A stretch of DNA of 64,000 nt. It comes from an uncultured virus (IMG/VR IMGVR_UViG_2923073944_000003). Taxonomy: Duplodnaviria > Heunggongvirae > Uroviricota > Caudoviricetes. The notes under the pieces are model-generated. The model was not told the origin of the DNA. It ran no database searches and saw only the letters and a list, made by a program, of their open reading frames with translations. The translations under genes and the position numbers were made by a program. Below are positions 3,524 to 62,017 of this stretch, one piece after another (position 1 is the stretch's first letter; every line of letters starts with the position of its first letter). The stretch lies in the IMG/VR virus record IMGVR_UViG_2923073944_000003, positions 1 through 64,000 of that record. The stretch is one strand, 5' to 3'.

Positions 3524-3572
3524 TAAACTTACCCCCTTCTAAATGAAATCAACATTTTAACTAGTTCTTTAC

Positions 3573-3806
3573 CTAAACCTCATTATGGACACCTGTTAAT
3601 TTCTCATAAAAAGACTCGTCGCATCCGCAATAAGGGCATACTTTTATCTCTTCGTTAAAACCATCGTAGTCCTGAACTGTCTGAGCTCGAGGCTTACTAA
3701 ATAGATGTCCGTTATGGCATTTGTAACAATGATCCTCGTGTCCTTTCCCGATCAATATTAAAATAGACAATACGAAAAGCGTGCTTATTAAAATTATAAA
3801 AGTCAC
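3573..3806 (-). CDS. Small membrane-anchored Zn-ribbon protein
   Basis: N-terminal hydrophobic helix; CHNGH and CPYC. Confidence 0.55.
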   Translation of the reverse strand: MTFIILISTLFVLSILILIGKGHEDHCYKCHNGHLFSKPRAQTVQDYDGFNEEIKVCPYCGCDESFYEKLTGVHNEV

Positions 3807-3903
3807 TTCCTTTCGGGTTATTTACAGGACTGTTGACGATGTGGGGACTGCTTTCGTACTTAAAAGCTCCCTGTATAAAATTTGAAAGCTCTTTGCTGCT
3901 CTT

Positions 3904-4203
3904 TTAAATGCTACTATCTATTTCTTCAATATCGTTTCCTTCGCATTTTGGACAATCAAAATCTGTTTCATCACCAGTCCAAGCATAACCGCAATCATTG
4001 CATTGCCATGTACAAGTGTGCTGATGTTCATTTTTATGTTCTTCTTTTTGTGCGCGCATATTTCTTACCAAATTCATAAATTCAGAGAACTCACCATACC
4101 CTTGACTTCCCCACGTAAAGTCATTTAATAACCGTTCATTTGTTTTTGATAAATATTCATCTAATTTACCCACGCCATCCCTCTTTCTTGTACGAAGTCT
4201 CAA
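3904..4203 (-). CDS. Zn-ribbon hypothetical protein (start probably downstream)
   Basis: CNDC...CPKC. Confidence 0.55.
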   Translation of the reverse strand: MRLRTRKRDGVGKLDEYLSKTNERLLNDFTWGSQGYGEFSEFMNLVRNMRAQKEEHKNEHQHTCTWQCNDCGYAWTGDETDFDCPKCEGNDIEEIDSSI

Positions 4204-4334
4204 AGTAAGAAGAAACTTTTGTTGTTGCAGTTAAATAACATGTTTTGCAAAAATACCAATAAAAAATTCCGTATGAGTGTTTTTGCAAATGCCCAAAATG
4301 AAAACATTTATCGCATTTCCCATACGACATGGTT

Positions 4335-4574
4335 TCACTTTTCAAAGTCATCAAGATCGATTCCATAAATGCTCTCAATCCAATCTTTAATTATGTGATA
4401 CCATCCTCCAAGAAGGCCATTCCACGCTAGAACATCTCTAAACACTTCCGAGTTCGTCATTTCTAAAATTTCTTTATCCATGGCGCCGTCTTTCTTTTCT
4501 AAACCCTCTCTCTGTCTTACATACTGAATAATACTAATTGGGTACTTTTCTTCTAACAGTTTTGTGTAATCCAT
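4335..4574 (-). CDS. Hypothetical phage protein
   Basis: ORF with RBS. Confidence 0.6.
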   Translation of the reverse strand: MDYTKLLEEKYPISIIQYVRQREGLEKKDGAMDKEILEMTNSEVFRDVLAWNGLLGGWYHIIKDWIESIYGIDLDDFEK

Positions 4575-4612
4575 ATCATTTCCCCTCTCTGGATAAAATC
4601 AGAAAAAACATT

Positions 4613-4978
4613 TTATCTTGAAACGTATTCGAAACACCCATCCAATACCTTTTTCAATAAGTATCTCTGTCCCCAAATACCCCACGTATCTCTATCTCCT
4701 GTATGCCACCCGCCGCACTCTGTAGGATAATGATCAAAGAACAGCATATTTTCTTCTTCTTTTGTCAACTCAACCAAAGGAAAGTAAAATCCTTTAGGGA
4801 ATGAATTTAAGACCTCTCCTAATGCTTCATATTCAGGATGTAAAGGGCGTGCATGCGATGGTACTTCTCCAAACTTGTTTATACCCAGTGAATTATATGA
4901 CCCATTAGGATTCTTATAAATAATCCACGATTCAACTCTATTTCGAGTCTTCTTCTTTATTCTCTTATTCAAAACCAT
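4613..4978 (-). CDS. Hypothetical phage protein
   Basis: ORF with RBS. Confidence 0.6.
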   Translation of the reverse strand: MVLNKRIKKKTRNRVESWIIYKNPNGSYNSLGINKFGEVPSHARPLHPEYEALGEVLNSFPKGFYFPLVELTKEEENMLFFDHYPTECGGWHTGDRDTWGIWGQRYLLKKVLDGCFEYVSR

Positions 4979-5020
4979 AACCCCCTTTTCAATCGCTTTA
5001 GAGATTAAACCAATATTTTA

Positions 5021-5230
5021 TCAATCTAAGCGTAGTTTCGTTGTTTTTCTATCTATTTTTGCTGTTGTGAAATCAACATTTAAGCCATTAAGAATCTCAC
5101 CAACTTCATTTAATATGCTGTTATCTACAACGGTAGCACTTTCTTTTGACATTTCCTTAATTGCTTTTGAAACATTAAACATATTATCACTCCCCCTTTT
5201 AAATAAAATTAGAATTTCATTTGACCTCAA
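5021..5230 (-). CDS. Small hypothetical protein (likely start at MFNVSK)
   Basis: RBS AGGGGAG before internal ATG. Confidence 0.5.
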
Positions 5231-5864
5231 ATGTCTTCAGCTCAAACGTTTTATACGTATCAACTTGATTGCCTGGTATCTCATTTACTCTTGGGTACAT
5301 ATCGTAGTCATACGGATATCCAATGCAGTTCATGTGAAAGCTCGTTCCTTCTTTATCAAACTCGGCTTGTAAATGGTCGTGTCCACAAACCCAATGTTCA
5401 GCATTAATGAAAGGCAAATCGACCATATAGCAGCTGTTAGGCTCAAATGGTGAATATGGATTGTGAACAGGAGGGACATGCGAAACAAATACATCAATGT
5501 GAGTGTTTTGAAGGGTATCATACCAGTCCATTGATTCTTTCCACATTGCTCTTACCGCATCTTCTTTGCTGTATCCATTAAGACTGATATAGTTTGAGTC
5601 ATTTGAGACTCCTTTGAAGAAATCCCATCCTTCTTTTCCTTTAGGAAGATACCACATAACATCTCCAGCAAAGATTTTCCCTTTGTATGTATCCGTTGAC
5701 TTTATCAATGGAGTGACATTCTTGATATCTGCAGCCTTTTGAATTAAATCATTTAACCTTCCCAATGAATCTGAGTATTTTCGTTGCTGATTTTTGCTGA
5801 GTAAATAAAGATCATGATTACCATACGTGAAATATACCCTTTCATATTGCTTCGCTACTTCATC
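5217..5864 (-). pseudogene. yotB: Metallophosphoesterase YotB, 5'-truncated
   Basis: Frame reads [18 protein letters not shown]...SHVPP...CGHDH; the DxH and GD motifs and the start codon are absent. Confidence 0.75.
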
Positions 5865-7226: not shown

Positions 7227-7443
7227 AGCTACTGCTCCTTCCCATAAAATACAGATTTTATATTAACTTAGTCGTAATAACTAATTTCTTTTTTATCCAT
7301 CACTTTTCGGATTATTCGCTCATGCTTCGATCGCTTTCTTTTATCGCTGCCTTTCACTCTTGGTTTTTCAAACATTCCATCGCAAGTCCAATCATATCCG
7401 CTATACTTTTTAAACACCTCCGTCTTCAGGCGTCTATGATACG

Positions 7444-12002: not shown

Positions 12003-12053
12003 CGTCTTTTTCCTCCTTATTGTTTAGATAAAAGTCTTCTTTTATAGAGATGT

Positions 12054-13647: not shown

Positions 13648-13887
13648 TTATAATTTGGAAATTAAATCTTCTAATTCTTCAGGTTTAAAACCAGTACTGC
13701 GTTTTACTTCACCTCCCTTGCTATCAATAAGAATTGTAACTGGAACTCCCATCACTCCATATTCTGCTGCTACTTCAGGGTTTTCTATTACATTAATAAT
13801 ATTATACTCTACACCCATATCTTTCAAATAGTTAGATACCATTCTACAGGGGTTGCAATCCGGTTGCTCAAGTTTGATTAGTTTCAT
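13648..13887 (-). CDS. yosR: Thioredoxin/NrdH-like redoxin
   Basis: CNPC, GVPVT. Confidence 0.9.
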
Positions 13888-15684
13888 TGAGTATCTCCTT
13901 TGTTATCGAAAATGAAATCAGAATCCTTTAATGGTTCAACAGTTGCTTTTTTGTATCCATTTCCTTTAGTTGAAAAGAAGTCATGGGATTTGGTTTTAGT
14001 GCTTAATCCATTAATAACAATTGGGTTAACATCCTCTTCCTCAAACCAATGTTCAAACCCAAGGTTGTTTAAAGCTTTATTTGCGTTGTATCTGATGAAT
14101 TTCTTTACATCTGGAGCTAGACCAACCTGATCATAGACATCTTCTGTATACTCCAGTTCATTTTCATAAAGATCCTGGAGCAAGCTTAAAGCCCATGTAT
14201 ACATTTCTTTTTGCTTCTTAGGCGTTTGTTTCTTGTATATCTCTTGAGCTAACAATCCGATATAAACGCCGTGAATCGCTTCGTCTCTAATACCCTTAGT
14301 TCAACCGAGTTCGCTACTCTCAGCTCGTTGCCCTGATGCAACCGCCTTACGTTACCGTAAGGAGCAGACTATATCATCATCCCTGTAGGATGCCTCCCGT
14401 TTCGATTTAAGGGGTTCTCACCCACGCCAATAGCTTGCGCCCTACTCGTTTTGCGGAATTTCGCCGCCTATGCGATAGTCGTTGAACGTTCTATGCGATC
14501 CCATAAAGTCTTCCATCTTCTTTTATGTCGAATCAGACTAACGTAACGAGGATGAAGGCTGTATTTTTCACCTGCTTCAACATTATTCATTCCAGCAAGC
14601 AAATCATAGATTAAATTTGTTGCCTCTGAGTCTGTGAGCTTTGACATTGAATTACTTTCTCCAGGTTGTCCTGACATTAATCCAATTTTCATTGCATGTA
14701 GAGTATTTTCTTTAGGTGTAACTATCTCTAAGTTCCGAACGTGATTGTTTAGTTTATTTCCATCTATGTGGTTTACAAACATTCCTTTTGGTATTTCATT
14801 AATAAAATATTTTGCGACTAACCTATGTACTAAAAAGTTCTGTGTTCCTTTTTTCGGATGCGTGTATCCTATCATTTCATAACCATGTGGAGTAATAAAT
14901 GTCTTTCTTGGTTTCTTTAATTTTTTTGATATGATAACTCCCGTTTCCGTTATCCACCAAGGCGCTTCTTCGACTTCTTTCCTTATCATTTTCACCTCCT
15001 TTGGGTTCGCATAGCTTCGCTGCTGATTGTCCTAAAAAGGATTTTCCAGCAATTAGAGAGGTTCACATTTGCCGTTGCCGACAAAAGGGACTATTAAATA
15101 ATCAGGTTAATGATCTCCCCGCTCTGCATAAGTTTCCCTTGTCCATAAAAGTAAAGTGGATAATAAAACCCTGAGTAGAAAAGGAAACTTTCCAGAAACA
15201 CAGACGCAACCATTGCTTTGAATAAGGAAATATCTTCGTTTTTCTGAACTGCTTTATAAATTGAAACAATTGTTTTTGCTTTCTTTTGAAGAAATTTATT
15301 GTTTTTAACCCATTCAAACACTTCGTTGATCTGCTCGGTTGGAGCTAATGTAAGAAAGATGTTGCTGTAAGACTTTGCATGAACAGCATTTTCCATCATG
15401 GCCATGAAATTTAAAACTGCCTTTCTTTGATGTCCATCTACATGTTCAGCAATTATAGGCATGCCAGTGTTACCTTGTTCTGTGTCCAACAACGTCAACC
15501 CAGCTAACACTTTCATATAAGTATCCTGCTCGTTTTTCCCGAGGTACTTCCATGTGAGGATATCGCCGTTTAAAGCAATCTCTTCCGGAAGCCAAAACTG
15601 CTTTACGTTTTGGTTGTAAAACATTTGGGTGAAATCATCTTCATGCTTTGACCAGTTTGCTGCGTCATAAATTCTATCAGTCAT
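13884..15684 (-). CDS. nrdF: Class Ib ribonucleotide reductase beta subunit, spliced: 15684-15101 + 14292-13884 (330 aa)
   Basis: Joined exons read [15 protein letters not shown]. Confidence 0.93.
14293..15100 (-). mobile_element. Group I intron in nrdF (808 nt) encoding an HNH endonuclease
   Basis: 5' exon ends in U with P1 GAU|UAUU:AAUAGUC wobble; terminal G. Confidence 0.9.
14468..14995 (-). CDS. yosQ: Intron-encoded HNH homing endonuclease
   Basis: VHRLVA...[17 protein letters not shown]. Confidence 0.9.
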
Positions 15685-15889
15685 TTACGCTGTGCTCCTG
15701 ATCTTTACGCTCTAAAATATCCGCATCTGCTCCATCCTCCACAAGCCATTGAAGTAGCGTAGAAATGTCTCCTGAATTTTTCACTTGCTCCCATGCAACG
15801 CCCTCATAGCCGAAAGCTGCCTCACATACCTCAACTGCATGGTCAAATCCACGTATAACAAGGTTTAGTAACAAAATTTTATCAGTCAT
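15677..15889 (-). CDS. 70-aa hypothetical protein between nrdE and nrdF
   Basis: RBS GAGGAGG before MTDKIL. Confidence 0.6.
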
Positions 15890-15890
15890 C

Positions 15891-16067
15891 TTAGTTGTCC
15901 TCCTCTTCAACAAATACTTCTTCATCCGATACAGCTTTGAACACCCACTCATGCGGAAAATCCGTCTGACTGAACAACCAATGATCGATTTCATGCGTTA
16001 CACATGATCCATGAATTAACTCATCCTCGTTATAAATCACGTAACCTTCGATTTTAACCTTTCGCAT
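15891..16067 (-). CDS. 58-aa hypothetical protein
   Basis: Hand-translated MRKVKIEGYVIYNEDEL...; RBS GAGGAGG. Confidence 0.6.
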   Translation of the reverse strand: MRKVKIEGYVIYNEDELIHGSCVTHEIDHWLFSQTDFPHEWVFKAVSDEEVFVEEEDN

Positions 16068-16088
16068 ATATCTTCGCCTCCTCTTCGT

Positions 16089-18721: not shown

Positions 18722-19079
18722 TAAGTTGTACCTCCCGATTAATCTTCTGCAAGTCTTGTTTTGTTCCACTTAGTTCAAACTTTAATAACAATGGTACATG
18801 GAACATTGCTGAAAGCTTGTCCCCAGCTAAACCATAGTTATCACCCCAAACCTTGTTACCACTCACAACAACTCCTTTTATTTTATTTTTATTCTTAATA
18901 ATAAAATGCCAAGTCCTTTCAGGTACTTCCCCAAAGCCTATCGTATATGTAATATGTATGAATTCTTCTTCAACAATTAAGTCATCTGTTATTTCAATGA
19001 CATCGAAGTTTAACTCCCTTTGTAATGCTTGAGCAAACCTTTTCACATTACCTGTCTTGCTTTCATATGTAATAATCAA
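18684..19079 (-). CDS. nrdI: Flavodoxin-like NrdI
   Basis: YESKTGNVKRF, SGNKVWG, KFELSG. Confidence 0.95.
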   Translation of the reverse strand: MIITYESKTGNVKRFAQALQRELNFDVIEITDDLIVEEEFIHITYTIGFGEVPERTWHFIIKNKNKIKGVVVSGNKVWGDNYGLAGDKLSAMFHVPLLLKFELSGTKQDLQKINREVQLIDKHNTKVDQAQ

Positions 19080-19907: not shown

Positions 19908-19941
19908 GCCTTCTCTCCATTCTTTAAAACTGTGATTTTAT

Positions 19942-20767: not shown

Positions 20768-20865
20768 TCCAATTTCCTCAGCAGTTGTGTTTGAATTTAT
20801 CAGAGCTTCTCGAATACGTTGAGACTGCCTTTGACTTATACTAATGTCTAATCAACTCCTTAAAA

Positions 20866-21228
20866 TCATCCTTTTATGGAGAACGAATGAATGCCAGCTA
20901 CGCCCTCAATGCTCCGAAATGGACTGAGTACATTAAATTCTATTTCCACCGCCAAACCTCTGTCTGAGTTCGTTTGGATTTTTTCGATTTTCACGTTAAC
21001 CTCCTTTGTTTCATCCTCTAAGCTTGTCATTTTCATTTTATAAGAACCCTTTAATACCCCGCCTAGTTCAAGCCATTTATACACCAATGAATCAATACCA
21101 AACCTTAATGTGATTTTATCTTCGTTTTCAGTTGCCTCTACATTTCTGTAATGAAGAACCATTTTTGTTTCATTTGGCAAATGTTTATTTAGTGTTTCTT
21201 CATATAAAGCAATTTCTTTTAAGATCAT
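20866..21228 (-). CDS. Hypothetical protein
   Basis: ORF. Confidence 0.6.
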   Translation of the reverse strand: MILKEIALYEETLNKHLPNETKMVLHYRNVEATENEDKITLRFGIDSLVYKWLELGGVLKGSYKMKMTSLEDETKEVNVKIEKIQTNSDRGLAVEIEFNVLSPFRSIEGVAGIHSFSIKG

Positions 21229-21280
21229 ATCTGACTCTCATTTTGCAAAATCGGTTTAAAATAAAACTTTTAATTAAATT

Positions 21281-22814: not shown

Positions 22815-23026
22815 ATTTCATTAAATGCTGCTATTGCCACCAATAGTTGCTTAGCCTCTACTTCTGCCATTTGATCTCCAATTTGCACCTTTACCCATGT
22901 ATCTGGATAATCGACACTCTTAGTTGCTAGGAGTTTCAAAGTTTTTCTGTTTACTCCCCTTAATGTGAATTCGGATGTAATGTCTCTCATGGTTTTCTCC
23001 TTTTCTTTATAAAAATCGAATTTCAT
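22811..23026 (-). CDS. Hypothetical protein
   Basis: ORF; start probably at MRDIT. Confidence 0.5.
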   Translation of the reverse strand: MKFDFYKEKEKTMRDITSEFTLRGVNRKTLKLLATKSVDYPDTWVKVQIGDQMAEVEAKQLLVAIAAFNEM

Positions 23027-23500
23027 TTAAAATTTATTCAAATGGCTCAAAATCGCTTACAGGAACCCATTTCCAACCCCCATAATGTTTTTTATAAATC
23101 AAAAATTCTTCTTGGTTTTTATCGTTTCTTCTCGTTCCATACACCTCAAAAATGTCCTCTTCGTGAGTAATATGCTTAATCATAGCCATTAATTTTTTCT
23201 CTCCTTTGGTTCTAATTTGTCGTATACTGCGGTTGCCCGGGAAATTATGAATATTGCCTTCTGACTATTTCCCTTCACATTGTTCATATCACTGTAAGAA
23301 TAACTCCAAGAATGAGTGAACACCCTCCAATTAAGAAAACCGTAAAATAGAATGGTCTGCCTTCTTTAAAGTTCTTATTCTCAACCAAGCATGCCATTCC
23401 ATTACCTAAGAATATTGAGCCGAATAAGATCAGACCCAGTACTAAATATGAAATTTCATTCACCTCGATTCTCGATAAAAGGAATATTTTATTTTTACTC

Positions 23501-25628: not shown

Positions 25629-25669
25629 CTCTTATATTTTATTTTTACTCTTTAAAAGACAAATTTTAT

Positions 25670-26587: not shown

Positions 26588-26726
26588 TAAATCACTCCAT
26601 ATAATTTATTTTTATTCTAAATAAAATTGATCTTTTAATCGGTTTCACAAACACTTCACACATTTCAAATATTTTACATGTTAGACTAGGGTTGTACTTA
26701 CAATCAAAACCTAGGAGGTAATCCTT

Positions 26727-41407: not shown

Positions 41408-41430
41408 TCTTGTTAAAACTACAATTTTAT

Positions 41431-43994: not shown

Positions 43995-44089
43995 TTAACA
44001 ACCACTCCTTTTTATTTTTGTTTTATTCTTAAAACTCAAATCACATAGATAACTCACATGTTATCACCCCCTTAAATAAAATATCGTTT

Positions 44090-44440
44090 TTATTCAGTTT
44101 CCAAAAGCTCAGGATCTTCGTAAATGTTTCCTGCTACATCCCACCAGACTGACTCGAGTTCTATGAGATGCTGATCATCATTCATTTCTCCACCCTTAGC
44201 CCAAAAAGATCCGTCTTTCCAGTAGACTCTCCAATGAAAACCATCTACATCTTGGATGATATCCCCCTCATAAATCTCTCTGTGGTATTTGTCCTTCATC
44301 CCCGTGTATTGCATCCATGAACTGTATTTTTCATTTTCATCATTATCATCTAGCGCTGCCAACTGAAACTGCTTTATATGATCCCAATAGTGCATTACTT
44401 TTTTCTTTTTTGAATACATCCGAAACTTAATTTCTCTCAT
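44090..44440 (-). CDS. YopX family protein
   Basis: MREIKFR...MQYTGMKD...EIYEGDI...GNIYEDPELL. Confidence 0.9.
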   Translation of the reverse strand: MREIKFRMYSKKKKVMHYWDHIKQFQLAALDDNDENEKYSSWMQYTGMKDKYHREIYEGDIIQDVDGFHWRVYWKDGSFWAKGGEMNDDQHLIELESVWWDVAGNIYEDPELLETE

Positions 44441-46321: not shown

Positions 46322-46556
46322 TCTCTCCGTTACATAATTCCTTAGTGACTTGCCATCGCACATTAAATGAAAATTTAGTACATGGATCAATTAGATAATT
46401 CATCGTTAAAATAACTATTTTATTTTGATCCCAAAATAATTTACCAAATATCATAGCCCACAAAATCATTTAAAATATTCGTCATTTCCTCATTCTCTTC
46501 TTCTGTCAATCCATATTCATCAAGTCTCTTTAAATAATCTTCTCGTTCGTTCTTGG

Positions 46557-47688: not shown

Positions 47689-47773
47689 CATCCCCTCTGC
47701 GATCGTTATCAGATTTGCTTATAATTTCGATAACGATCCATCCTTATATGTTTAGTTGAAAACTATCTTTTAT

Positions 47774-48034: not shown

Positions 48035-48483
48035 TTCCCCACCTCTTCCTTTAAAATCACGATTTCATTTAGAGTAAACCTTTTTCTTACTGTCACGCGT
48101 TCACTTTCGGAAAACATATTAATCTACTAACTTTAATAACTCATCGACTTCATAATTATATTCACCATATTCACCAGAGCCCCATTCAACACCTACAGAA
48201 CCTCGATTTGTCGTCCACAATATAATTCCCATCTCCCCACATTCATGCCACCTTACTTGCTTCCCTTTCTGATAACCAAGCATGTTTTCAACCCCATTCG
48301 ATTCTAATGAATGATATTTTGTTATCTTTCCACCAGGCTTCGAGCAATTTTTTCAATTCTTATTCTGCGTTTTTCATCTAGTATCTCTCTTTCGTTAACT
48401 TCTAACATCTTCTTTAAGCTTAGATTTTTTCTAATAAGCTCTTTCATTCTGTTCATGCGTTTTCTCCTTCTCGATTCTTTATA

Positions 48484-48938: not shown

Positions 48939-49109
48939 TTATTTTATTTTTATCCTTTAAGTATTTATATGTATTCCATCCGCAGCCATCAAATATGCTT
49001 ATGTCCGCTCCAAGATGCCATCTAAACCAAACTAAGTTAAACCAGGCTGTATCAATTATGTGCTTTAAATAACCTATGTGCCTTCCTCCTTACAATGAAA
49101 ATAGTCCTT

Positions 49110-49502: not shown

Positions 49503-49534
49503 TACATCTCCCTCTCTTTAAAACAGTCTTTTTA

Positions 49535-50131
49535 TTAAATCCCAATCACACTTTCCCTTAGATTCTTTATCCATTCGTTTCGTCTGTTTACTCTCTCAAC
49601 TTCTTCCTGGTGCATTTGTTTGTACCACTCGATATTATCCCTTGTTTTCTCAATTTTCATTTTCAACCATTCTTCAGGATCATGTCGTACGACCTCTCTA
49701 ATGAGACTGGGATTACAGTCAGTTTTAATACTGCCTTTTAACTGCTCAATTGCAAACTCTTTAAGGCTTATGTGCTCACTTGTAGGCGGCTCCCATTCTT
49801 TGATACATTCTAATAATTTCGTATACCGTTTTAGGAGTTTCTTTTGGTTATCAGAGATTTTCTTATATTCATTTAATTGATTTCGATACAGGGTGTCTAC
49901 AGCCATCTCCGCTTCTTTTAGTGACATATTTGAATACCTGTCTAACTCTGATAACTCCTTGGTTAGAGCATCTTTATAGTAGCCACTCGGTTCAAACTCA
50001 GGTATTTCAGCATTTAAAGGTTCTTCCCTCATTGAAATGGTTGCACCAAAAGCCCGTGCACATGTCAATAAAAAGTCCTTAGGGGATACCTCTTCTCCAT
50101 GATAAATTTCGCTTGTATATCCTGTTGGCAT
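49535..50131 (-). CDS. Conserved phage protein (MPTGYT family)
   Basis: ORF with RBS. Confidence 0.7.
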   Translation of the reverse strand: MPTGYTSEIYHGEEVSPKDFLLTCARAFGATISMREEPLNAEIPEFEPSGYYKDALTKELSELDRYSNMSLKEAEMAVDTLYRNQLNEYKKISDNQKKLLKRYTKLLECIKEWEPPTSEHISLKEFAIEQLKGSIKTDCNPSLIREVVRHDPEEWLKMKIEKTRDNIEWYKQMHQEEVERVNRRNEWIKNLRESVIGI

Positions 50132-50174
50132 ATATAAACTTCCTTTCTCTTTAAAATTTTACTTTTAATCTAAT

Positions 50175-52373
50175 TCATCTTGTTTCCTGGGCCACAGTTT
50201 CTTTTTCAAAATCGTTTCTCAATTTGATAATGGAGGTTGATTTTAAATACCCTCTGTCCTTTGTCTTAGCCCATGCGAAAAATCTATTGTGTAAAGGAGT
50301 ATAAAGGCTTCCTGTGTTAACCATATGCTCATGTTTGTTGCTGATCTTATGCTTTAATCCCCTCATTTGTTTCCAAAAGTTATAGTAAGGGAGCTTAAGT
50401 TTTGTCATGAAGCCGGCAGCATCTTCAATTACATAACCCTCTTCCTCAATTGAAAAATCTTGTGACACGTCCAGATACCATCTATAGAAATCTGTCCAGT
50501 TACTAAACTCTGCAACTTGTTTTTTACACTCAATGTTTAGATGCTCGGCTACAGCTTTCAATTCCCAATAAGGAAGTTTTGTATACACAACCTGCCTTTT
50601 AACAATATCTAAAAGCACCAGTTTATCTTTGTCGTATTCAATGATATGCGGGTCTTTTTCTGGAAGTATTACTTCAAAAACGAATGAAACATTGTTAAGC
50701 TTCAGGTAAGTTTTGATAAAAGACACTTGATTTTCATTAAAAGATTTGAAAAACAGTTCTTCGACCCATTTCGCATGTTCATTTGATATTTGTGACGTAA
50801 AGGATTTAGAAGTGAATACCAACTGATCTGACAAAGAGTCATACCCTACAATTCCTAAATATCCATTTGCCTTATCGAAGACTGTTACTGGAAATTTCAT
50901 CGTATCTACGAGATGATGCATTCTTGTTTCAGATCGTTCTCCAATGTTGAAAAATTTATCATAGCTTCTGCTTACAATTTCATTGCTCTCAGTGTTAATA
51001 AACAAACCTCTTGCCTTAATATTTGTTTCATCCCACTTTTTCTTTCTAAATGCTTGCTTTGTAAAATTAAATGATGAGATATTGTTTGGCATTTTATTCT
51101 CTTGCACATATTCATGACCACGTAAGTGGGAAATCAATTCATCAATTGTTCCAACAGTTGCGCTGTTACTCGGTACTTCACTTGAAATTTGTTTAAAGAC
51201 TTTATTCTTCACTTCATGCGTTTCAATTCCGTTCTCAGACAGTGTAACGACTCTAAGATGTCCTCCTCTTTCCACTTGCCCTTCCAGGTTATATGATCTA
51301 TCTGCTGCTACCACAGGCAGACGGTACATGTTTCTATGTCCATGAATCTGTACAACATTTTGACCTGCAGTATTATTTGCAAATTCATAATCAATATCGT
51401 CTGAATAATCTCCAACTCCATTGATGAATTGTGTTGTTGCAGTCATCAAAAGATTTTCTGGTACGGTTGAAACTCCGCCATGGGTTACAATGTATGTAGT
51501 GTTTTTATATGTAAAGTAAGCTAACTGATGAAACTTTCTGGCCAGCTGTCTAATATCTTTTTTATCAATGTTGGATTGTTCAATTTCTGGCTTAGTTTTG
51601 TTGTTAAATGTGCTGCTAGGTGTTTCTTCATCATTCCCATACATATTGATATATCTATCATGATTCCCTTCGAGAATAATCACATTTTTATAATCTTTAA
51701 TTTTGATCATGAATTCTAACAGCTGTGCATTTTCAATACCTCTGTCGATAAGATCTCCTACAAAGATGTATAGTTCATTTTCATTCAAATCACCGTTTAA
51801 ATACTCTTGAAGCACAGTATTGCAGCCATGAACATCTCCGAAAATATGTATCTTTTTATAATCGTCAAAACATCTTGGCTTATAAGTCATCGTGTTTTCG
51901 AACTCATCTGGTTTTAGAACAGTTACCCAAGATGGCACTTTTTCTGTTGTCATTCTTTCATAAATATTTAGAATACTGCTTTCAGGAACATGCTTATGTT
52001 CGGCCCTCATTTTATTTCTTTTTAAGATTCTCCGAACATCAACATCAGAAAAATCAATTACATATACACGGTATCTGTATTTTTGAGCTAGTGGCTTATA
52101 TCTTGAAATCATACTTTGCTTTGAATGAGTTGCATCGACAATTGTGAATTCACCGCGATCCATCCTGTCTTCAAGCAATTTCATTAATAAATCCCACACC
52201 TTGTTATCGTGTTTTGGAGAGATTTCATATTTCCCACTTTTGTTTAACACAGGTGACTGAAACAGCAATCTAATGTTGTCCGCAGAAAGTGTGTATTGCT
52301 CAAGTCCATTTTCTTTAACCCAAGTTGATTTCCCTACTCCTGGGCAGCCTCTTAATAGCACTAATGTTCTCAA
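50175..52373 (-). CDS. Polynucleotide kinase / metallophosphatase / Rnl1-type RNA ligase fusion
   Basis: GCPGVGKS; GDVHG, GDLIDRG, GNHD; RGLF...YDKFFN, KANG, EGYV, KLK. Confidence 0.85.
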   Translation of the reverse strand: MRTLVLLRGCPGVGKSTWVKENGLEQYTLSADNIRLLFQSPVLNKSGKYEISPKHDNKVWDLLMKLLEDRMDRGEFTIVDATHSKQSMISRYKPLAQKYRYRVYVIDFSDVDVRRILKRNKMRAEHKHVPESSILNIYERMTTEKVPSWVTVLKPDEFENTMTYKPRCFDDYKKIHIFGDVHGCNTVLQEYLNGDLNENELYIFVGDLIDRGIENAQLLEFMIKIKDYKNVIILEGNHDRYINMYGNDEETPSSTFNNKTKPEIEQSNIDKKDIRQLARKFHQLAYFTYKNTTYIVTHGGVSTVPENLLMTATTQFINGVGDYSDDIDYEFANNTAGQNVVQIHGHRNMYRLPVVAADRSYNLEGQVERGGHLRVVTLSENGIETHEVKNKVFKQISSEVPSNSATVGTIDELISHLRGHEYVQENKMPNNISSFNFTKQAFRKKKWDETNIKARGLFINTESNEIVSRSYDKFFNIGERSETRMHHLVDTMKFPVTVFDKANGYLGIVGYDSLSDQLVFTSKSFTSQISNEHAKWVEELFFKSFNENQVSFIKTYLKLNNVSFVFEVILPEKDPHIIEYDKDKLVLLDIVKRQVVYTKLPYWELKAVAEHLNIECKKQVAEFSNWTDFYRWYLDVSQDFSIEEEGYVIEDAAGFMTKLKLPYYNFWKQMRGLKHKISNKHEHMVNTGSLYTPLHNRFFAWAKTKDRGYLKSTSIIKLRNDFEKETVAQETR

Positions 52374-52394
52374 ATTCTATCAACCTTTCTAATT

Positions 52395-52646
52395 TTATTT
52401 ATCTAATTCCCTCATGTCTTCTCGCTGCTCAATATAACTTTTAAAATGCTCCCAATCTCTATCAATTTCTTTAACATTTCTAGCAATATAGGATTCTGCA
52501 ATTTCTGGATCCACCAACTTTTGAAGAGAAAGTTGGTACATAAGCTCAATCTTTGTTACTGTTTCTAAAAATGATCGAGCGCAACTTTTAGCACTATTTA
52601 AGCGATATTGACTCATTCCATGTTTTGATTCCATTATTATTCTCAC
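52395..52646 (-). CDS. Hypothetical protein
   Basis: ORF with RBS. Confidence 0.6.
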   Translation of the reverse strand: MRIIMESKHGMSQYRLNSAKSCARSFLETVTKIELMYQLSLQKLVDPEIAESYIARNVKEIDRDWEHFKSYIEQREDMRELDK

Positions 52647-52705
52647 TCCCTTTTAATCACGTTAAAATGCATCTTTTATATTGATCTCAATACTTCTCGG
52701 CAAGC

Positions 52706-54145: not shown

Positions 54146-54146
54146 T

Positions 54147-54413
54147 CTATAACCTCCTTTCGGCAGATAGTTTCTCTTTGCCTGCTGCTGTTACCCTGAA
54201 ATAAGCCATATCCTCTTCCCACCCAGCGTGTTTGGTGGCGAGTCCTTTCGAAACAAGTTCATTCCAATGAATATCGTTCGATTCCTCGTAGAATCTATTT
54301 CCGTTTTTCAAGGCATGTTTCATGTAATCAATTTGAATTTCATTCATTACTTTTCCCTCCTTATTTGAATCTCTATAAAACTTACATTTTATTTTTATCC
54401 TCAAAATATTCAT
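54147..54413 (-). CDS. Hypothetical protein (likely start at MNEIQ)
   Basis: RBS GGAGG before internal ATG. Confidence 0.55.
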   Translation of the reverse strand: MNILRIKIKCKFYRDSNKEGKVMNEIQIDYMKHALKNGNRFYEESNDIHWNELVSKGLATKHAGWEEDMAYFRVTAAGKEKLSAERRL

Positions 54414-58371: not shown

Positions 58372-59430
58372 TCACTTGTTCAAAAACATTTTAAGTTTAC
58401 TCTGTATATACATGTCTGATTTTAAAAAGAATTCTTTATATTGCTCTAAGGTAACATCTTCTAAAAAGGACATGTCTTCTTTTTGATCAACCAAAACCCC
58501 TGGATCTTGAGAATAATCCCTTTCATTGACTAAATAATGGTCATTTAAAGTATTGATATTGCTGTGACCAGAGAATGCTGCCACTTTTTTAATATCACTA
58601 TTAACGCTGTAAGAAAAGTTTGTTGCAGTATTGCGTAAACTATGCGGAGTTATCTTTCTTTCTTTGGGAATACCCATAACTCTACATACGCGATTCCACA
58701 TATCCTGTATTGAATCAACTGTTAACTTATGAAATAACAGTTCATGTTCCCCATACTCTTGCTTTAACAGCAACAACTCTTCATAGAAAGCTGTGGAAAT
58801 TCCAACTGGCCTAGCCTTTTTTTGCTTAGTTTTTTTAAAGTTGACGAGATAGCATTGGTGCTTTTCTGAATAAGTAATATCATCCCACCCAACTCTAAGC
58901 ACCTCTGATTTACGCCCACCAGTACGTGCACTAAACAAAATAAACATCTTTTTCATTAATCTGTTCTGACGCTCAGTAACATACGCTGCCTCAGCAAATT
59001 CATCAGCTTCAGATATTCCTTCAAAAGACCCTGCTGGGTTCTTTTCTGTTGGAAGAGGTCTAAAATTAAATACAGATGAATCACACTCATGTTCAGATTC
59101 AAGATACTTAATCATACTTTTCAGTGCGGCAATCTTATTGTTAATTGTTGAATTGGAGTTACTTTTATTTTTAGCCAAATGAGTTCGATAATCATACAGG
59201 TCGCTCTTCTTGATCGCCAGGTCACTCTCAGTTAAATATTCAATATCCTTGGCAGCATAGTGGTTGAAAAACTCTCTTATATGCCTTTCATACGTGGCTC
59301 TAGTATTAGACTTTTCAATTTCTCCAGTTTCTCGATCCCTGTTTCTTAAATCTAATTCATCAAACCACCTATTTATGTTATTGTATATTGAATAATCCCT
59401 TAGTGTTGACGCTTTCTTTTGAGCTTCCAT
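58372..59430 (-). CDS. yopP: Tyrosine recombinase-family protein, SroD
   Basis: TGGRKSE, KTK, HSLR, GHS, HY. Confidence 0.85.
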   Translation of the reverse strand: MEAQKKASTLRDYSIYNNINRWFDELDLRNRDRETGEIEKSNTRATYERHIREFFNHYAAKDIEYLTESDLAIKKSDLYDYRTHLAKNKSNSNSTINNKIAALKSMIKYLESEHECDSSVFNFRPLPTEKNPAGSFEGISEADEFAEAAYVTERQNRLMKKMFILFSARTGGRKSEVLRVGWDDITYSEKHQCYLVNFKKTKQKKARPVGISTAFYEELLLLKQEYGEHELLFHKLTVDSIQDMWNRVCRVMGIPKERKITPHSLRNTATNFSYSVNSDIKKVAAFSGHSNINTLNDHYLVNERDYSQDPGVLVDQKEDMSFLEDVTLEQYKEFFLKSDMYIQSKLKMFLNK

Positions 59431-60136: not shown

Positions 60137-60186
60137 ATTATATATGTTGCTAGAATAATATGCAACAATTTATTTTATTTTTATCC
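60137..60186 (-). promoter_or_regulatory. sro operon sigA promoter with repeated element
   Basis: GGATAAAAATAAAATAAATTG-TTGCAT-17 nt-TATAAT. Confidence 0.75.
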
Positions 60187-60249
60187 AAGACAAATAACAC
60201 ATCCCCTTTGTATGTGTTAAAATGTCTGCTGATTTGTCTTTAATCTTCA

Positions 60250-60405
60250 TTAGGATACCTTTGCTTTATATTTTGATCTAACCATATCTGCTTCATTTTC
60301 AAGATGATTATCTTCCTGGGAAATTTCTAAGTTAAGGTCTCCCATTTCCATGTATCCCTTAGCCATATCCTCATAAGAAAGTGATTGTCCGAAATGCTTT
60401 TTCAT
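60250..60405 (-). CDS. aimX: AimX, 51-aa MazE-mimic
   Basis: Hand-translated MKKHFGQSLSYEDMAKGYMEMGDLNLEISQEDNHLENEADMVRSKYKAKVS. Confidence 0.88.
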   Translation of the reverse strand: MKKHFGQSLSYEDMAKGYMEMGDLNLEISQEDNHLENEADMVRSKYKAKVS

Positions 60406-60417
60406 TTTAATTCCTCC

Positions 60418-60454
60418 ATGTTCTTGTTTTTTATATTATGAATTTCTGGAACAT
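60418..60454. promoter_or_regulatory. AimR operator
   Basis: Perfect ATGTTC-25 nt-GAACAT, the 6-25-6 AimR architecture. Confidence 0.85.
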
Positions 60455-60465
60455 TCTCTTAAAAT

Positions 60466-60500
60466 TAGAAAAGACGCCTGATCCACTGGATCAAACGTCT
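60466..60500 (-). terminator. Terminator between aimP and aimX
   Basis: AGACG..TGATCC-ACT-GGATCA..CGTCT with T run on minus strand. Confidence 0.8.
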
Positions 60501-60532
60501 AACCATTGATTATGTAGTATCCTGTTGTATTA

Positions 60533-60664
60533 TTAAGCTCCCCGAATTGCACTTGCTACAGAGATCTCATCAGAAGCTGATGCCGTATTAACTGAATGTT
60601 GACCTGCAATGAATGAAATTGCTAATGATGCTAAAATGGCTGTACCGAAAATAATTTTTTTCAT
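60533..60664 (-). CDS. aimP: Arbitrium peptide precursor, mature SAIRGA
   Basis: Hand-translated MKKIIFGTAILASLAISFIAGQHSVNTASASDEISVASAIRGA. Confidence 0.95.
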   Translation of the reverse strand: MKKIIFGTAILASLAISFIAGQHSVNTASASDEISVASAIRGA

Positions 60665-60693
60665 TAAATTCACCTCCTTTCAAGTACTAAATT

Positions 60694-61833
60694 CTAAATT
60701 AAATTTAGCAGCTCCGGGTCACAGCCTAATTTTTCGAGTTCTATTATTGCCAATTGGATAAAATATTTATCATCTGATTCTTTAAAATATGTTATTGATT
60801 TAAAAAAATCAGATTTTTGCCTCGATATTAAACCTTTATAATAAAAATAAAATCCTAATTCATTTTCATCTTGATCTCTTTTTGATAAGCTTTCTAATAA
60901 TTCGTTAGCCTTGTCGAGATTATTACTTTTTATGTAATAAAAAGCCCTTAGCTGTTGATATTTGATTTCATTTGATTCATAGTTAACCCATAGATTTTCC
61001 TTGTTCCATACATTAGCTAAGAAGCAAAGAGCGCCATTTAGCATTTCTTCATGAGTATCATTCAGAACATACTTCTTTGCCTCAACATACGCCAGCATAG
61101 CTTCTTCATAATTTTCGAAAATTAGGGTATTACCTATTGTCAGATGTGCAAAGAAACATATTCGGTTCACATTGGACTGCATTATTGCAATATTTGAATG
61201 TTTCCTTGCTTCGATTAAATTGTTTTCGTTTAAGCTTATATTCGCTTTTAACATTGACACTCTACTTTTGTACGAATCTTTTATAAATCCTTCTGGTAAG
61301 CTTTTAAAATCTAAAAGTGTTAAGGTGCTTTTCATCAATCCGAACTCACCAATATTCAAGTATTTATACATCAGCATTGCATCTGAAAAAAATGACATTT
61401 CTGGAGCTTTACATCTCCCACATTCTCTTATTGCTTCTGGTATTGAGATTTCGTTTTTATATAGCTTTCTATGTATGTTGTAGATGTTACCCCATTCTTG
61501 ACTTGTTGTGTTTTTTGAGTGGCATAAATTTAAAATAATCTTGTCTGTTAATGAATCCCATTGATTGATATCGGAGTATTCAACAGATTGTCTAGCGCAT
61601 TTTTTGTTGGGATCCAGTGATAAGAAGTAATCACTTAGAAGCTGCTCCTCATTATCAGGAAACAAGCTTTTAACAATATTAATTAAACCGCCTAAGTTGT
61701 CCATTTCTTTCTCTGGGGTGTTGATGAATTTGTAAAAACCATTAACCTTTTCGTACCCTGCTATTTTTGAGAGTTTCGCTGCGAGCTGGCTGTCTTTTTC
61801 ACATTCATTCTTAATCATCTGCTTAAGATTCAT
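60694..61833 (-). CDS. aimR: Arbitrium receptor
   Basis: 379-aa HTH plus TPR protein directly upstream of aimP. Confidence 0.95.
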   Translation of the reverse strand: MNLKQMIKNECEKDSQLAAKLSKIAGYEKVNGFYKFINTPEKEMDNLGGLINIVKSLFPDNEEQLLSDYFLSLDPNKKCARQSVEYSDINQWDSLTDKIILNLCHSKNTTSQEWGNIYNIHRKLYKNEISIPEAIRECGRCKAPEMSFFSDAMLMYKYLNIGEFGLMKSTLTLLDFKSLPEGFIKDSYKSRVSMLKANISLNENNLIEARKHSNIAIMQSNVNRICFFAHLTIGNTLIFENYEEAMLAYVEAKKYVLNDTHEEMLNGALCFLANVWNKENLWVNYESNEIKYQQLRAFYYIKSNNLDKANELLESLSKRDQDENELGFYFYYKGLISRQKSDFFKSITYFKESDDKYFIQLAIIELEKLGCDPELLNLI

Positions 61834-61874
61834 TGGTTACTCCACCCCTTCCCAACTAATGTTCCCTTGTTTAT

Positions 61875-61924
61875 AATATACATTAGAGTTGTCAGAATTA
61901 CAAGTATTTATTTTATTTTTATGC
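61875..61924 (-). promoter_or_regulatory. aimR sigA promoter with repeated element
   Basis: GCATAAAAATAAAATAAATAC-TTGTAA-17 nt-TATATT. Confidence 0.7.
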
Positions 61925-62017
61925 TAATTATTTTTTAAGGAATACTTATCTGTTTAAAATTCGTATTTTATAAAGACACAATTTTTCTTCACAACTGTGT
62001 CTTTTATTATTGTAATT

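What the first reader, a model, noticed from the sequence alone, without database searches (positions are those of the whole stretch)
3543..61971. About 22 palindromic 6-6-6 sites bracket accessory genes like cassette junctions
Seen: WTRAAA-N6-TTTYAW or near matches at about 3543, 5004, 5203, 7244, 12028, 19924, 20860, 23009, 23475, 25652, 26621, 41413, 44076, 46406, 47756, 48051, 49096, 49518, 50151, 52662, 54375 and 61954. The spacer is always 6 bp and differs in every copy. The sites sit in gene gaps, often overlapping the upstream stop codon and just before the next RBS. By eye I found none in the replication core (27.7-40 kb) or inside nrd. A rough independent-base estimate gives about 1 expected per 64 kb. 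Known: inverted arms with a 6-bp spacer are the geometry of Xer/Cre-type tyrosine recombinase sites. Inference: either an integron- or pdif-like gene-cassette exchange system behind the mosaic accessory regions, or a genome-wide operator array for a recombinase-fold repressor (SroD or MrpR).
Basis: partly seen in the sequence, partly recalled or inferred. Interest (0 to 1): 0.8.

Follow-up and report, generated by a model that had tools for sequence, protein, structure and literature searches.

The report
Address-coded palindromes at phage gene-cassette joints
This SPbeta-like Bacillus phage carries dozens of copies of one short palindrome between its genes, each with its own conserved middle, and related phages have swapped, gained or lost gene blocks at exactly these sites.

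Summary
WTRAAA-N6-TTTYAW occurs 22 times in the window against 1-2 expected, and only with a 6-bp gap. The whole 123-kb phage has 33 copies. SPBc2 and five related proviruses have 31-40 each.

With its flanks the site is a 28-bp 11-6-11 palindrome. Symmetric positions do not covary, so it reads as two protein half-sites, not a hairpin.

It is not the known SPBRE/MrpR operator, which is a different, asymmetric sequence.

Comparison of 97 related sequences supports the cassette-junction reading:
- The 18-mers are islands of identity between alternative flanks on both sides: 10 of 11, against 2-4% of control 18-mers.
- Arm variants follow their own flank.
- Each genome position has its own spacer, about as conserved as the arms while the flanks vary.
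- Contigs from public runs join at site edges.

The enzyme is unknown. The Xer-like YopP/SroD is a candidate, but it diverges while the arms do not. I found no description of the motif in the papers searched. Lazarevic 1999 was not available.

The parts
3543..3560 (.). junction palindrome, exact
   Evidence: lies between ORFs 3359-3523 and 3573-3806; a homology block shared with SPBc2 ends at 3560
   Evidence: lies between ORFs 4613-4978 and 5021-5182
5203..5220 (.). junction palindrome, exact
   Evidence: homology ends here in 3 of 5 genomes
7244..7261 (.). junction palindrome, exact
12028..12045 (.). junction palindrome, exact (spacer GAAGAC in gene orientation)
   Evidence: this 18-mer occurs in 32 sequences with 7 upstream and 5 downstream flank families and passes the four-gamete test
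19924..19941 (.). junction palindrome, exact
20860..20877 (.). junction palindrome, exact (spacer GGATGA)
   Evidence: 28 sequences, 16 upstream and 11 downstream flank families; an SPBc2 homology block runs 20856-21276
23009..23026 (.). junction palindrome, exact
23475..23492 (.). junction palindrome, exact (spacer TATTCC)
   Evidence: 35 sequences, 4 upstream and 7 downstream flank families, passes the four-gamete test
25652..25669 (.). junction palindrome, exact (spacer TTTGTC); downstream border of the DNA-methylase slot
26621..26638 (.). junction palindrome, exact (spacer GATCAA); upstream border of the DNA-methylase slot
   Evidence: in relatives the distance between the GATCAA and TTTGTC sites ranges from 243 to 1627 bp
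41413..41430 (.). junction palindrome, exact
44076..44093 (.). junction palindrome, exact
   Evidence: a piece of a related contig ends at 44094
46406..46423 (.). junction palindrome, exact
   Evidence: joints at 46407 (run X22, 180 other letters) and 46423 (run X23, 1049 other letters); homology ends here in G007 and SPBc2
47756..47773 (.). junction palindrome, exact
   Evidence: joints at 47759 and 47780
48051..48068 (.). junction palindrome, exact
   Evidence: joint at 49100 in the X23 contig
49518..49535 (.). junction palindrome, exact (spacer AGACTG)
   Evidence: 12 sequences, 8 upstream and 5 downstream flank families
50151..50168 (.). junction palindrome, exact; downstream border of the block holding the RNA-repair (kinase-phosphatase-ligase) gene
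   Evidence: the X23 contig piece begins exactly at 50151, and an X2 contig begins at 50154
52662..52679 (.). junction palindrome, exact; upstream border of the same block
   Evidence: the X23 contig piece ends exactly at 52679; 5 upstream and 4 downstream flank families
54375..54392 (.). junction palindrome, exact
61954..61971 (.). junction palindrome, exact; upstream of the aimR-like gene
58372..59430 (-). YopP/SroD-like tyrosine recombinase; a candidate enzyme or reader only, not shown to act on the sites
   Evidence: Pfam Phage_integrase 1.8e-14 plus a SAM-like N-terminal domain; the best NCBIfam matches are XerA/XerC/XerD, all far below cutoff; Tyr, Arg I and His II are invariant in 17 homologues, and Arg II is R or K
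1118..1672 (-). RecU-like Holliday-junction resolvase; conserved recombination gene, link to the sites unproven
   Evidence: PHROG 843 1.7e-37; weak matches to RecU in the PDB and in TIGR00648; 85-93% identical in 5 of 5 related genomes

Best explanation
The sites are 28-bp palindromes: 11-bp arms (TYTnnWTAAAA) around a 6-bp spacer. They are read on double-stranded DNA by a symmetric dimeric protein, and they are the points where SPbeta-like phages exchange, gain and lose gene blocks.

Every junction ('slot') along the genome has its own spacer. Relatives keep that spacer even when the DNA on either side has been replaced. Two phages can therefore swap the block between two slots while gene order is kept, and unlike sites within one genome rarely recombine.

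The most likely chemistry is site-specific exchange that needs matching spacers, as in tyrosine-recombinase systems of the Xer/Cre type. The phage's Xer-like YopP/SroD is the obvious candidate, but it is unproven.

Shown here:
- the enrichment and the 11-6-11 geometry;
- the absence of base-pair covariation;
- crossovers that map inside the site;
- spacers that are slot-specific and conserved.

Inferred: protein binding, the requirement for spacer identity, and the enzyme.
For: Enrichment and spread:
- 22 sites against 1-2 expected, and only with a 6-bp gap.
- 33 sites in the whole phage, 31 in 100 kb of SPBc2, and 32-40 in each of 5 proviruses.
- The host genome has about 1 per 100 kb on its largest listed contig.

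Structure of the site:
- Among 177 non-redundant sites the flanks extend the palindrome: T at -5 in 123, Y at -4 in 146, R at +22 in 168, A at +23 in 157.
- Watson-Crick pairs at variable symmetric positions match the count expected if the two positions vary independently, for example 74 against 71.6.

Sites as exchange points:
- Of exact 18-mers present in at least 5 of 97 sequences, 10 of 11 motif 18-mers have more than one flank family on both sides. The controls are 12 of 282 intergenic and 34 of 1836 genic 18-mers. The four-gamete test is passed by 3 of 11 against 0.
- Of 42 spacer alleles, 31 have several families on both sides.
- Left-arm variants follow the upstream flank (0.92 against 0.79). 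Right-arm variants follow the downstream flank (0.90 against 0.80).
- Breakpoints lie within 20 bp of 109 of 159 sites, against 152 of 565 site-less gaps.
- Window-wide, 12 of 104 homology ends fall in the 1.44% of the window covered by sites.
- In contigs of public runs, 6 of 10 joints lie at site edges.
- The same spacer pair brackets alternative cassettes, and a cassette is gained or lost together with one site.

Spacer conservation:
- 5 of 234 spacer positions segregate, against 124 of 780 and 112 of 780 in the flanks.
- Under matched conditions, 8.1% of site pairs differ in the spacer, against 39.7% of control middle 6-mers.

Candidate enzyme: the YopP family keeps Tyr, Arg I and His II in 17 of 17 sequences.
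Against: No binding or catalysis is shown.

YopP is only 29-34% identical between phages whose arms are the same. In one provirus it matches in two frames, so it may be broken. In the SPbeta-type proteins Arg II is Lys.

Many breakpoints lie elsewhere: 185 in site-less gaps and 132 inside genes, out of 511. With five whole genomes, only 6 of 22 window sites show a homology end, against 11 of 117 site-less junctions.

Some joins between unlike spacers exist: 7 of 72 upstream and 5 of 67 downstream flank families carry two unrelated spacers. One spacer, TATCAA, could be a chimera of its two neighbours. That would fit crossover by short homology better than a fixed cleavage point.

Selection for 'exchangeability' is second-order, so why the spacers are conserved is not really explained.

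Pair counts are not phylogenetically independent. My ORF map contains some wrong starts and spurious small ORFs.
Confidence: 0.42

Rival explanations
1. The sites are regulatory binding sites for a conserved dimeric DNA-binding protein of the phage or the host. They could act as a roadblock or insulator array like mycobacteriophage stoperators, or as a switch acting at each gene block. Exchange at the sites is then a by-product: ordinary recombination prefers these rare perfect matches between diverged genomes, as proposed for the PeSL cassettes of T4-type phages.
For: - The arms are invariant, with a sharp class boundary and no tail of weak sites.
- Positions lie between a stop codon and the ribosome-binding site, or between a terminator and a promoter.
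- The arms are identical in phages with different immunity modules, which points to a conserved reader. Conserved candidates include an HU-like protein, small HTH proteins and a RecU-like protein.
- Joins between unlike spacers, and a possible chimeric spacer, fit short-homology crossover.
- There is a PeSL precedent (abstract of PMC2839356) and a stoperator precedent (abstract of PMC9283540).
Against: It does not explain why a spacer with no consensus between slots is about as conserved within a slot as the arms. An exchange region of 14-18 bp is very short for general recombination; that it is too short is recalled knowledge and was not tested. No promoter or terminator signal accompanies the sites: promoter-like matches are at chance level and there is no base-pair covariation. 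No reader protein has been identified.
Confidence: 0.3
2. The palindromes are targets of a phage nuclease, or of a structure-specific enzyme such as the conserved RecU-like resolvase or one of the HNH or GIY-YIG endonucleases. Breaks at the sites then stimulate repair from a co-resident relative.
For: Interrupted palindromes suit dimeric nucleases. A RecU-like gene is 85-93% conserved in 5 of 5 relatives. HNH and GIY-YIG genes are present. Junctions cluster at the sites.
Against: Diversity steps up abruptly at the site edge, where a conversion tract would leave a gradient. There is no covariation, and the all-A/T 6-bp arms make an extruded cruciform unlikely. The phage would be cutting its own genome 33 times. 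Spacer conservation is not explained.
Confidence: 0.1
3. The sites are the operators of the master repressor MrpR (YopR/SroF), that is, the known SPBRE.
For: MrpR has a recombinase fold and binds a repeated element in intergenic regions of SPbeta (PMC10516654, passages read). A palindrome lies within 300 bp upstream of 3 of the 10 genes at whose promoters MrpR binds.
Against: - The element shared by the 10 bound regions is an asymmetric 14-15-mer, present in 11 copies in 100 kb of SPBc2. It does not resemble the palindrome.
- ChAP-seq gave ten peaks, while the same 100 kb holds 31 palindromes.
- The phi3T homologue binds a 26-bp asymmetric box as a monomer (preprint 10.1101/2025.11.27.690993, section read).
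- The palindrome arms are identical in phages whose MrpR is 28-32% identical.
- The SPbeta SPBRE is absent from this window: 5 loose matches against 2.9 expected.
Confidence: 0.02
4. The sites act in the mRNA, as a weak A/U hairpin or protein site just before the ribosome-binding site that directs processing or translation.
For: Most sites lie 18-34 nt before a start codon and often overlap the previous stop codon.
Against: No covariation or compensatory change occurs at any variable symmetric pair: A-C 14, G-T 4 and G-C 1 at positions 3/16. The stem would consist of six A-U pairs only. Some sites lie far from any start, after terminators and ahead of promoters. The symmetry extends over 28 bp, with sequence-specific arms. 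Only assembled RNA contigs were available, so transcript ends could not be read.
Confidence: 0.05

Closest known systems
dif modules bounded by pdif (XerC/XerD) sites on Acinetobacter plasmids (abstracts and listings of PMC6449649 and PMC13141974)
   Same: The sites are 28 bp with 11-bp arms and a 6-bp spacer. There are many copies per replicon. Accessory modules bounded by the sites turn up in different contexts. In both cases the enzyme is presumed rather than demonstrated.
   Different: - The two arms here are alike (homodimer-type), where pdif has distinct XerC and XerD halves.
- The arms are not the host dif arms: 11 of 18 consensus positions agree, and the profile score is -18 against 6 or more for real sites.
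- The replicon is a temperate phage.
- Each slot has its own conserved spacer and gene order is kept.
- The sites sit between stop codon and ribosome-binding site inside operons.
PeSL (promoter-early stem-loop) cassettes of T4-type phages (abstract of PMC2839356)
   Same: A short repeated intergenic motif flanks non-essential genes in plastic regions of a large phage, and lies at the borders of insertions, deletions and replacements between relatives.
   Different: A PeSL is a promoter plus a terminator hairpin, and it is exchanged by homologous recombination. Here there is no promoter signal and no structural covariation. The unit is only 18-28 bp, and it carries a slot-specific spacer.
Stoperators of Cluster A mycobacteriophages (abstract of PMC9283540)
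   Same: Dozens of copies of one short site are spread over a temperate phage genome in short gaps between genes.
   Different: Stoperators are asymmetric and are bound by a monomeric immunity repressor. The present sites are palindromic. Their arms do not change between phages whose lysogeny proteins are 28-39% identical.
SPBRE, the MrpR/SroF operator of SPbeta (PMC10516654; preprint 10.1101/2025.11.27.690993)
   Same: It belongs to the same phage family, is also a repeated intergenic element, and is read by a recombinase-fold protein.
   Different: SPBRE is a different sequence. It is asymmetric, lies at promoters, has about 10-11 copies, and is specific to each immunity type.
Integron attC sites and gene cassettes
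   Same: Single genes are gained and lost together with one flanking site, and arrays of cassettes lie in one orientation.
   Different: - No IntI, attI or Pc is present. The integron-integrase model scores 31 bits against a cutoff of 265.
- attC sites keep their structure rather than their sequence and are longer (recalled). Here the sequence is kept and no pairing covaries.

Membership tests
SPBRE / MrpR operator | Sequence shared by the ten MrpR ChAP-seq regions of SPbeta | tested here: not met
   The shared element is an asymmetric 14-15-mer (13-15 of 15 matches in 9 of 10 regions; the tenth copy lies at +27 of yorM). It is unlike the palindrome.
SPBRE / MrpR operator | Sites lie in the MrpR-bound promoter regions | tested here: not met
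   A palindrome lies within 300 bp upstream of 3 of the 10 genes. The same 100 kb of SPBc2 holds 31 palindromes but gave ten peaks.
Tyrosine-recombinase core site (Xer/Cre type) | Inverted arms of about 11-13 bp around a spacer of 6-8 bp | tested here: met
   The consensus of 177 sites is 11-6-11. Only the 6-bp gap is enriched.
Tyrosine-recombinase core site (Xer/Cre type) | A cognate recombinase with an intact catalytic set | tested here: inconclusive
   The YopP-like protein matches Phage_integrase at 1.8e-14. Tyr, Arg I and His II are invariant in 17 of 17 sequences, and Arg II is R or K. The catalytic assignment was made by eye from motif positions, not from a structural alignment. There was no PDB hit by sequence.
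Tyrosine-recombinase core site (Xer/Cre type) | Partner sites need identical spacers | tested here: inconclusive
   Indirect support only. Spacers are slot-specific and conserved. 65 of 72 upstream and 62 of 67 downstream flank families carry a single spacer type. A minority of joins between unlike spacers exists.
Tyrosine-recombinase core site (Xer/Cre type) | Cleavage and strand exchange at the spacer borders | not testable with these tools
   Needs biochemistry or in vivo assays.
pdif / Xer modules | Arms are binding sites of the host XerC and XerD (dif-like) | tested here: not met
   The B. subtilis dif site printed in PMC3025954 agrees at 11 of 18 consensus positions (chance 6.8, sd 2.1). 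Its profile score is -18.4, against 6.1-29.3 for real sites.
pdif / Xer modules | Modules bounded by the sites recur in different contexts | tested here: met
Integron | attC keeps a folded structure with variable sequence; IntI, attI and Pc lie next to the array | tested here: not met
   No covariation. The sequence, not a structure, is conserved. The integron-integrase model scores 31 bits against a cutoff of 265.
PeSL-type regulatory cassette | The unit holds a sigma-70-type promoter and a terminator stem-loop | tested here: not met
   No conserved -35 or -10 element around the sites. Promoter-like matches are at chance level, 71 against 71.6. There is no pairing signal.
PeSL-type regulatory cassette | Lies at the borders of insertions, deletions and replacements between relatives | tested here: met
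Stoperator-type operator array | Bound by the immunity repressor, with the site co-varying with immunity type | tested here: not met
   The arms are identical in genomes whose MrpR, YopQ and YopP homologues are 28-39% identical. Binding itself cannot be tested here.

The most novel reading that the evidence does not exclude
SPbeta-like phages run a dedicated, address-coded cassette-exchange system. A symmetric recombinase, most plausibly the Xer-like YopP/SroD that is expressed in lysogens, pairs 11-6-11 sites whose 6-bp spacers match. Only same-slot sites of two co-resident phages recombine. Anti-defence, methylase and other accessory genes are therefore swapped block by block without scrambling gene order. 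The spacers are kept because a junction with a changed address drops out of the exchange pool.
Probability: 0.27. Interest if true: 0.9.

Novelty: new variant of a known kind. Interest (0 to 1): 0.72.

Why it matters
How phage genomes become mosaics is a long-standing question. One view is random illegitimate joining followed by selection. The other is exchange at conserved boundary sequences.

This phage family offers sharply defined boundary sites, 30-40 per genome. Their spacers behave like addresses. The family includes SPbeta and phi3T in Bacillus subtilis 168, one of the best genetic model systems available. The blocks between the sites include methylases, an RNA-repair enzyme and many small genes of the kind that carry anti-defence functions in these phages.

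If a dedicated enzyme is involved, this would be a new kind of phage-borne gene-shuffling device and a possible tool for slot-specific cassette exchange. If no such enzyme exists, the sites still mark an unrecognised DNA-binding activity that touches most early gene blocks of SPbeta.

Tried and rejected
- **SPBRE/MrpR.** This was my first guess from recall. I rejected it after deriving the SPBRE from the ten ChAP-seq regions and reading the phi3T box.
- **Hairpin or cruciform.** No covariation.
- **Promoter.** No conserved -35 or -10 element. The consensus scan is at chance level. YonO transcribes the late operon from one start, according to passages of PMC5467207.
- **Host regulon.** The host genome of a related prophage has 105 matches in 4.5 Mb against 25 for the reversed control. 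Its largest listed contig has 8 in at least 723 kb, roughly 25-fold sparser than in the phage. I did not count how many of the 105 lie in the prophage.
- **Phyletic contrast.** Loci without sites proved to be large terminal-repeat phages that share only the NrdE N-terminal part used as bait, so they say nothing about a reader protein. More distant relatives of the 732-aa gene (46-54% identity) have 0-1 sites and no alternative palindrome.
- **Host dif mimicry.** Rejected.
- **RNA evidence.** Only assembled contigs were on offer. They cannot show transcript ends, and parts without cover are not evidence.
- **Earlier findings of this scan.** None on this genome.
- **Literature.** Lazarevic et al. 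1999 is not held. Brady et al. 2023 was found only as a citation.

Full report
**What the window is.** The window is the first 64 kb of a 123,288-bp phage genome. It is an SPbeta-like temperate Bacillus phage. Megablast finds 26 Bacillus phage records, including SPbeta, phi3T and the Goe and SPbetaL phages, at 85-92% identity over parts of the query. Nearly all genes lie on the minus strand. Pfam shows the usual SPbeta early region:
- nucleotide metabolism, with split ribonucleotide reductase genes;
- a C5 methylase and the replication genes;
- a ligase and a kinase-phosphatase-RNA-ligase;
- the lysogeny operon, with homologues of AimR, YopP (tyrosine recombinase family), YopQ (DndB-like) and MrpR.

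**The observation.** The pattern WTRAAA-N6-TTTYAW matches 22 times. Dinucleotide shuffles give 1.17, and 0 of 100 reach 22. Markov models up to order 5 give at most 2.2 on average. A model trained on the intergenic DNA alone gives 0.3-0.5, against 20 observed there. Only the 6-bp gap is enriched: 22 hits, against 0-4 for every other gap from 0 to 14. Everted or direct arrangements of the same arms give 1-5. Sites with one mismatch are no more common than chance, so the class is sharply bounded.

5004 and 49096 are degenerate copies, and 21256 and 29094 were missed. All 22 spacers differ. The sites lie in gene gaps. They typically overlap or follow the upstream stop codon and lie 18-34 nt before the next start. 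One of my ORF starts, for the DNA polymerase, was wrong, so some 'gaps' in my map are not real.

**Spread.**
- The whole phage has 33 sites, 26 in the early region and 7 in the late region.
- SPBc2 has 22 and 9 in two 50-kb stretches, against 1.2 and 1.0 expected.
- Fourteen IMG/VR loci of close relatives have 3.6-6.3 sites per 10 kb.
- Five complete or nearly complete proviruses have 32-40 each, against 1-3 for a reversed control.
- A host genome carrying such a prophage has 105 matches in 4.5 Mb against 25 for the control. Only 8 were listed across its largest contig of at least 723 kb.
- Relatives at 46-54% protein identity have 0-1 sites and no substitute palindrome.
- Large terminal-repeat phages that merely share the NrdE bait have none.

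**Anatomy.** I aligned 177 non-redundant sites in gene orientation. The conserved block extends to T-Y-T at -5 to -3 and A-R-A at +21 to +23. That makes a 28-bp palindrome with 11-bp arms and a 6-bp spacer. At every symmetric pair that varies, the number of Watson-Crick combinations equals the number expected if the two positions vary independently. Substitutions in the arms are not compensated. Sequence, not pairing, is conserved. This points to recognition of two half-sites on duplex DNA by a symmetric protein, and away from an RNA hairpin, a cruciform or an attC-like folded site.

**Not the known SPbeta element.** The published repeated element of SPbeta, SPBRE, is the operator of the master repressor MrpR (PMC10516654, passages read). 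The paper's text does not print it, so I derived it from the ten promoter regions named there. The result is an asymmetric 14-15-mer with 11 copies in 100 kb of SPBc2, one at each of the ten genes. It does not resemble the palindrome. Only 3 of the 10 regions have a palindrome within 300 bp. ChAP-seq gave ten peaks, while the same DNA holds 31 palindromes. The phi3T homologue binds a 26-bp asymmetric box as a monomer (preprint 10.1101/2025.11.27.690993, sections 3 and 5 read). This window does not carry the SPbeta SPBRE. That fits its MrpR homologue being about 30% identical to the others.

**Junction behaviour.** I compared 97 sequences (1.96 Mb): this genome, SPBc2 and 95 loci around two bait genes.
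- Homology blocks between this phage and SPBc2 repeatedly end at site edges.
- In 16 loci around the RNA-repair gene, 109 of 159 sites have a homology end within 20 bp, against 152 of 565 site-less gaps. Of 511 ends, 185 lie in site-less gaps and 132 inside genes.
- A stricter window-wide test against five whole genomes gives 6 of 22 sites, against 11 of 117 site-less junctions. Twelve of 104 ends fall in the 1.44% of the window covered by sites.
- The clearest test asks whether an exact 18-mer shared by at least five sequences has more than one family of flanks on both sides. This holds for 10 of 11 motif 18-mers, 12 of 282 other intergenic 18-mers and 34 of 1836 genic ones. Three of the 11 show all four combinations of two upstream and two downstream families. 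No control does.
- Of 42 spacer alleles seen in three or more sequences, 31 have several families on both sides and 11 pass the four-combination test.
- Variants in the left arm go with the upstream flank and variants in the right arm with the downstream flank. The exchange points therefore lie inside the site.
- Contigs of public runs give independent examples. Six of 10 joints lie at site edges. One 35-kb contig matches the window exactly from 50151 to 52679, from one site to the next, with other DNA on both sides.

**Slots and addresses.** Spacers are collinear between genomes. Pairs that share only the upstream flank have identical spacers in 97 of 112 cases. Pairs that share only the downstream flank do so in 60 of 67 (ungapped comparison, pairs not independent).

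Within 39 groups of orthologous sites, defined by their flanks alone, 5 of 234 spacer positions segregate. The figures are 124 of 780 and 112 of 780 in the flanks, and 22-23 of 195 in the five bases next to the arms. In a matched control I took windows whose two outer 6-mers are identical and whose flanks are 70-92% identical. The middle six bases differ in 39.7% of 47,193 such windows, but in only 8.1% of 260 site pairs; 62 pairs with an arm difference were set aside. So the spacer has no consensus across slots, yet within a slot it is about as conserved as the arms.

One region shows what a slot is. After one conserved gene the sites with spacers TATCTC, GATCAA and TTTGTC follow in that order. 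The distances between them take many values (151-890 bp and 243-1627 bp), which means alternative cassettes. The first cassette can be missing together with one site. In this window the GATCAA-TTTGTC slot holds the C5 methylase (25652-26638).

A minority of flank families (7 of 72 upstream, 5 of 67 downstream) carry two unrelated spacers, so joins between different slots also occur.

**Who reads the sites.** This is open.
- The YopP-like protein (58372-59430) belongs to the phage integrase family. Its best curated matches are XerA, XerC and XerD, all far below their cutoffs.
- In 17 distinct homologues the tyrosine, the first arginine and the histidine before the second arginine are invariant. 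The second arginine is R or K (assigned by eye).
- A preprint reports the SPbeta gene as transcribed in lysogens in one data set (10.1101/2021.11.22.469490, passage).
- Against it, YopP is 29-34% identical between phages whose site arms are the same, and it matches in two frames in one provirus.
- Better-conserved candidates are a RecU-like resolvase (85-93%), an HU-like protein (61-93%), a small HTH protein (53-84%) and a 60-residue protein of unknown function (79-86%).
- A host factor is also possible. The host dif site, as printed in PMC3025954, agrees with the consensus at 11 of 18 positions (chance 6.8) but scores far below real sites, so these are not dif copies.

**Reading.** That the sites are the places where blocks are exchanged, gained and lost is well supported. 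How that happens is inferred. I favour spacer-matched site-specific exchange (0.42), because it accounts for four things together: the 11-6-11 geometry, the sharp class, the crossover inside the site and the conserved addresses.

The main rival (0.30) is a regulatory protein-binding site at which ordinary recombination happens to cross over. It explains the invariant arms across immunity types and the joins between unlike spacers. It does not explain the conserved spacers.

**Literature.** Ten searches, and passages from the SPbeta papers that I opened, gave no description of this palindrome. The SPBc2 record annotates stem-loops and two 'palindromes', but not these sites as a class. The 1999 genome paper and the 2023 paper on the repression operon were not available, and I did not look at supplements. 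An earlier mention there cannot be excluded.

Noticed in passing
window 50151-52679: A 732-residue protein combines a kinase, a phosphoesterase and a T4-type RNA ligase domain (an RNA-repair enzyme). Together with a 79-residue ORF it forms one block bounded exactly by two palindromes. A related contig from a public run has the same block with different DNA on both sides.
   Followed up: partly
window 13884-18769: The ribonucleotide reductase genes are in pieces: the small subunit in two ORFs around an HNH endonuclease gene, the large subunit in at least four ORFs. SPBc2 annotates introns and an intein in these genes. This stretch of nearly 8 kb has no palindrome.
   Followed up: no
window 1-64000; SPBc2 locus L001/L002: The SPbeta MrpR operator (SPBRE) has 11 copies in 100 kb of SPBc2 but only one near match in this whole phage (at 1176). 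This phage's MrpR homologue is about 30% identical to SPbeta's. It should therefore have a different, still undefined, operator and immunity type.
   Followed up: partly
G000 64000-64182 (+ strand, starts at the last base of the window); SPBc2 locus L002 39290-39469: A 60-residue ORF on the strand opposite to the early genes is 79-86% identical in 5 of 5 related genomes (PHROG 8829, function unknown). The SPBc2 record does not annotate it. It lies next to a palindrome in SPBc2.
   Followed up: no
locus L021 15202-16712 (G000 77202-78712): A tubulin/FtsZ-family gene is followed by a small winged-helix protein. This looks like a TubZ/TubR-type DNA segregation or positioning pair in this phage.
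   Followed up: no
G009 60615-61570 (provirus fetched as L131-L138): The YopP homologue matches in two pieces in different frames, so it may be frameshifted. That provirus still has 38 palindromes.
   Followed up: no
loci L067, L072, L073 and neighbours: The spacer TATCAA could be a chimera of the neighbouring slots TATCTC and GATCAA, which share ATC in the middle. It could also be a single substitution of GATCAA. If it is a chimera, the crossover occurred inside the spacer.
   Followed up: partly
SPBc2 locus L001 26465-26629: In SPBc2 both the SPBRE copy (+27) and a palindrome (+147) lie inside the annotated start of yorM. In this window the 3D domain of the homologue lies in a shorter ORF (28536-28982). 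The annotated yorM start may therefore be too far upstream.
   Followed up: partly
handles G002-G006: Five phage genomes of 147-160 kb, three with direct terminal repeats, encode the N-terminal part of NrdE at 80-84% identity to this phage. They have no palindromes at all.
   Followed up: partly
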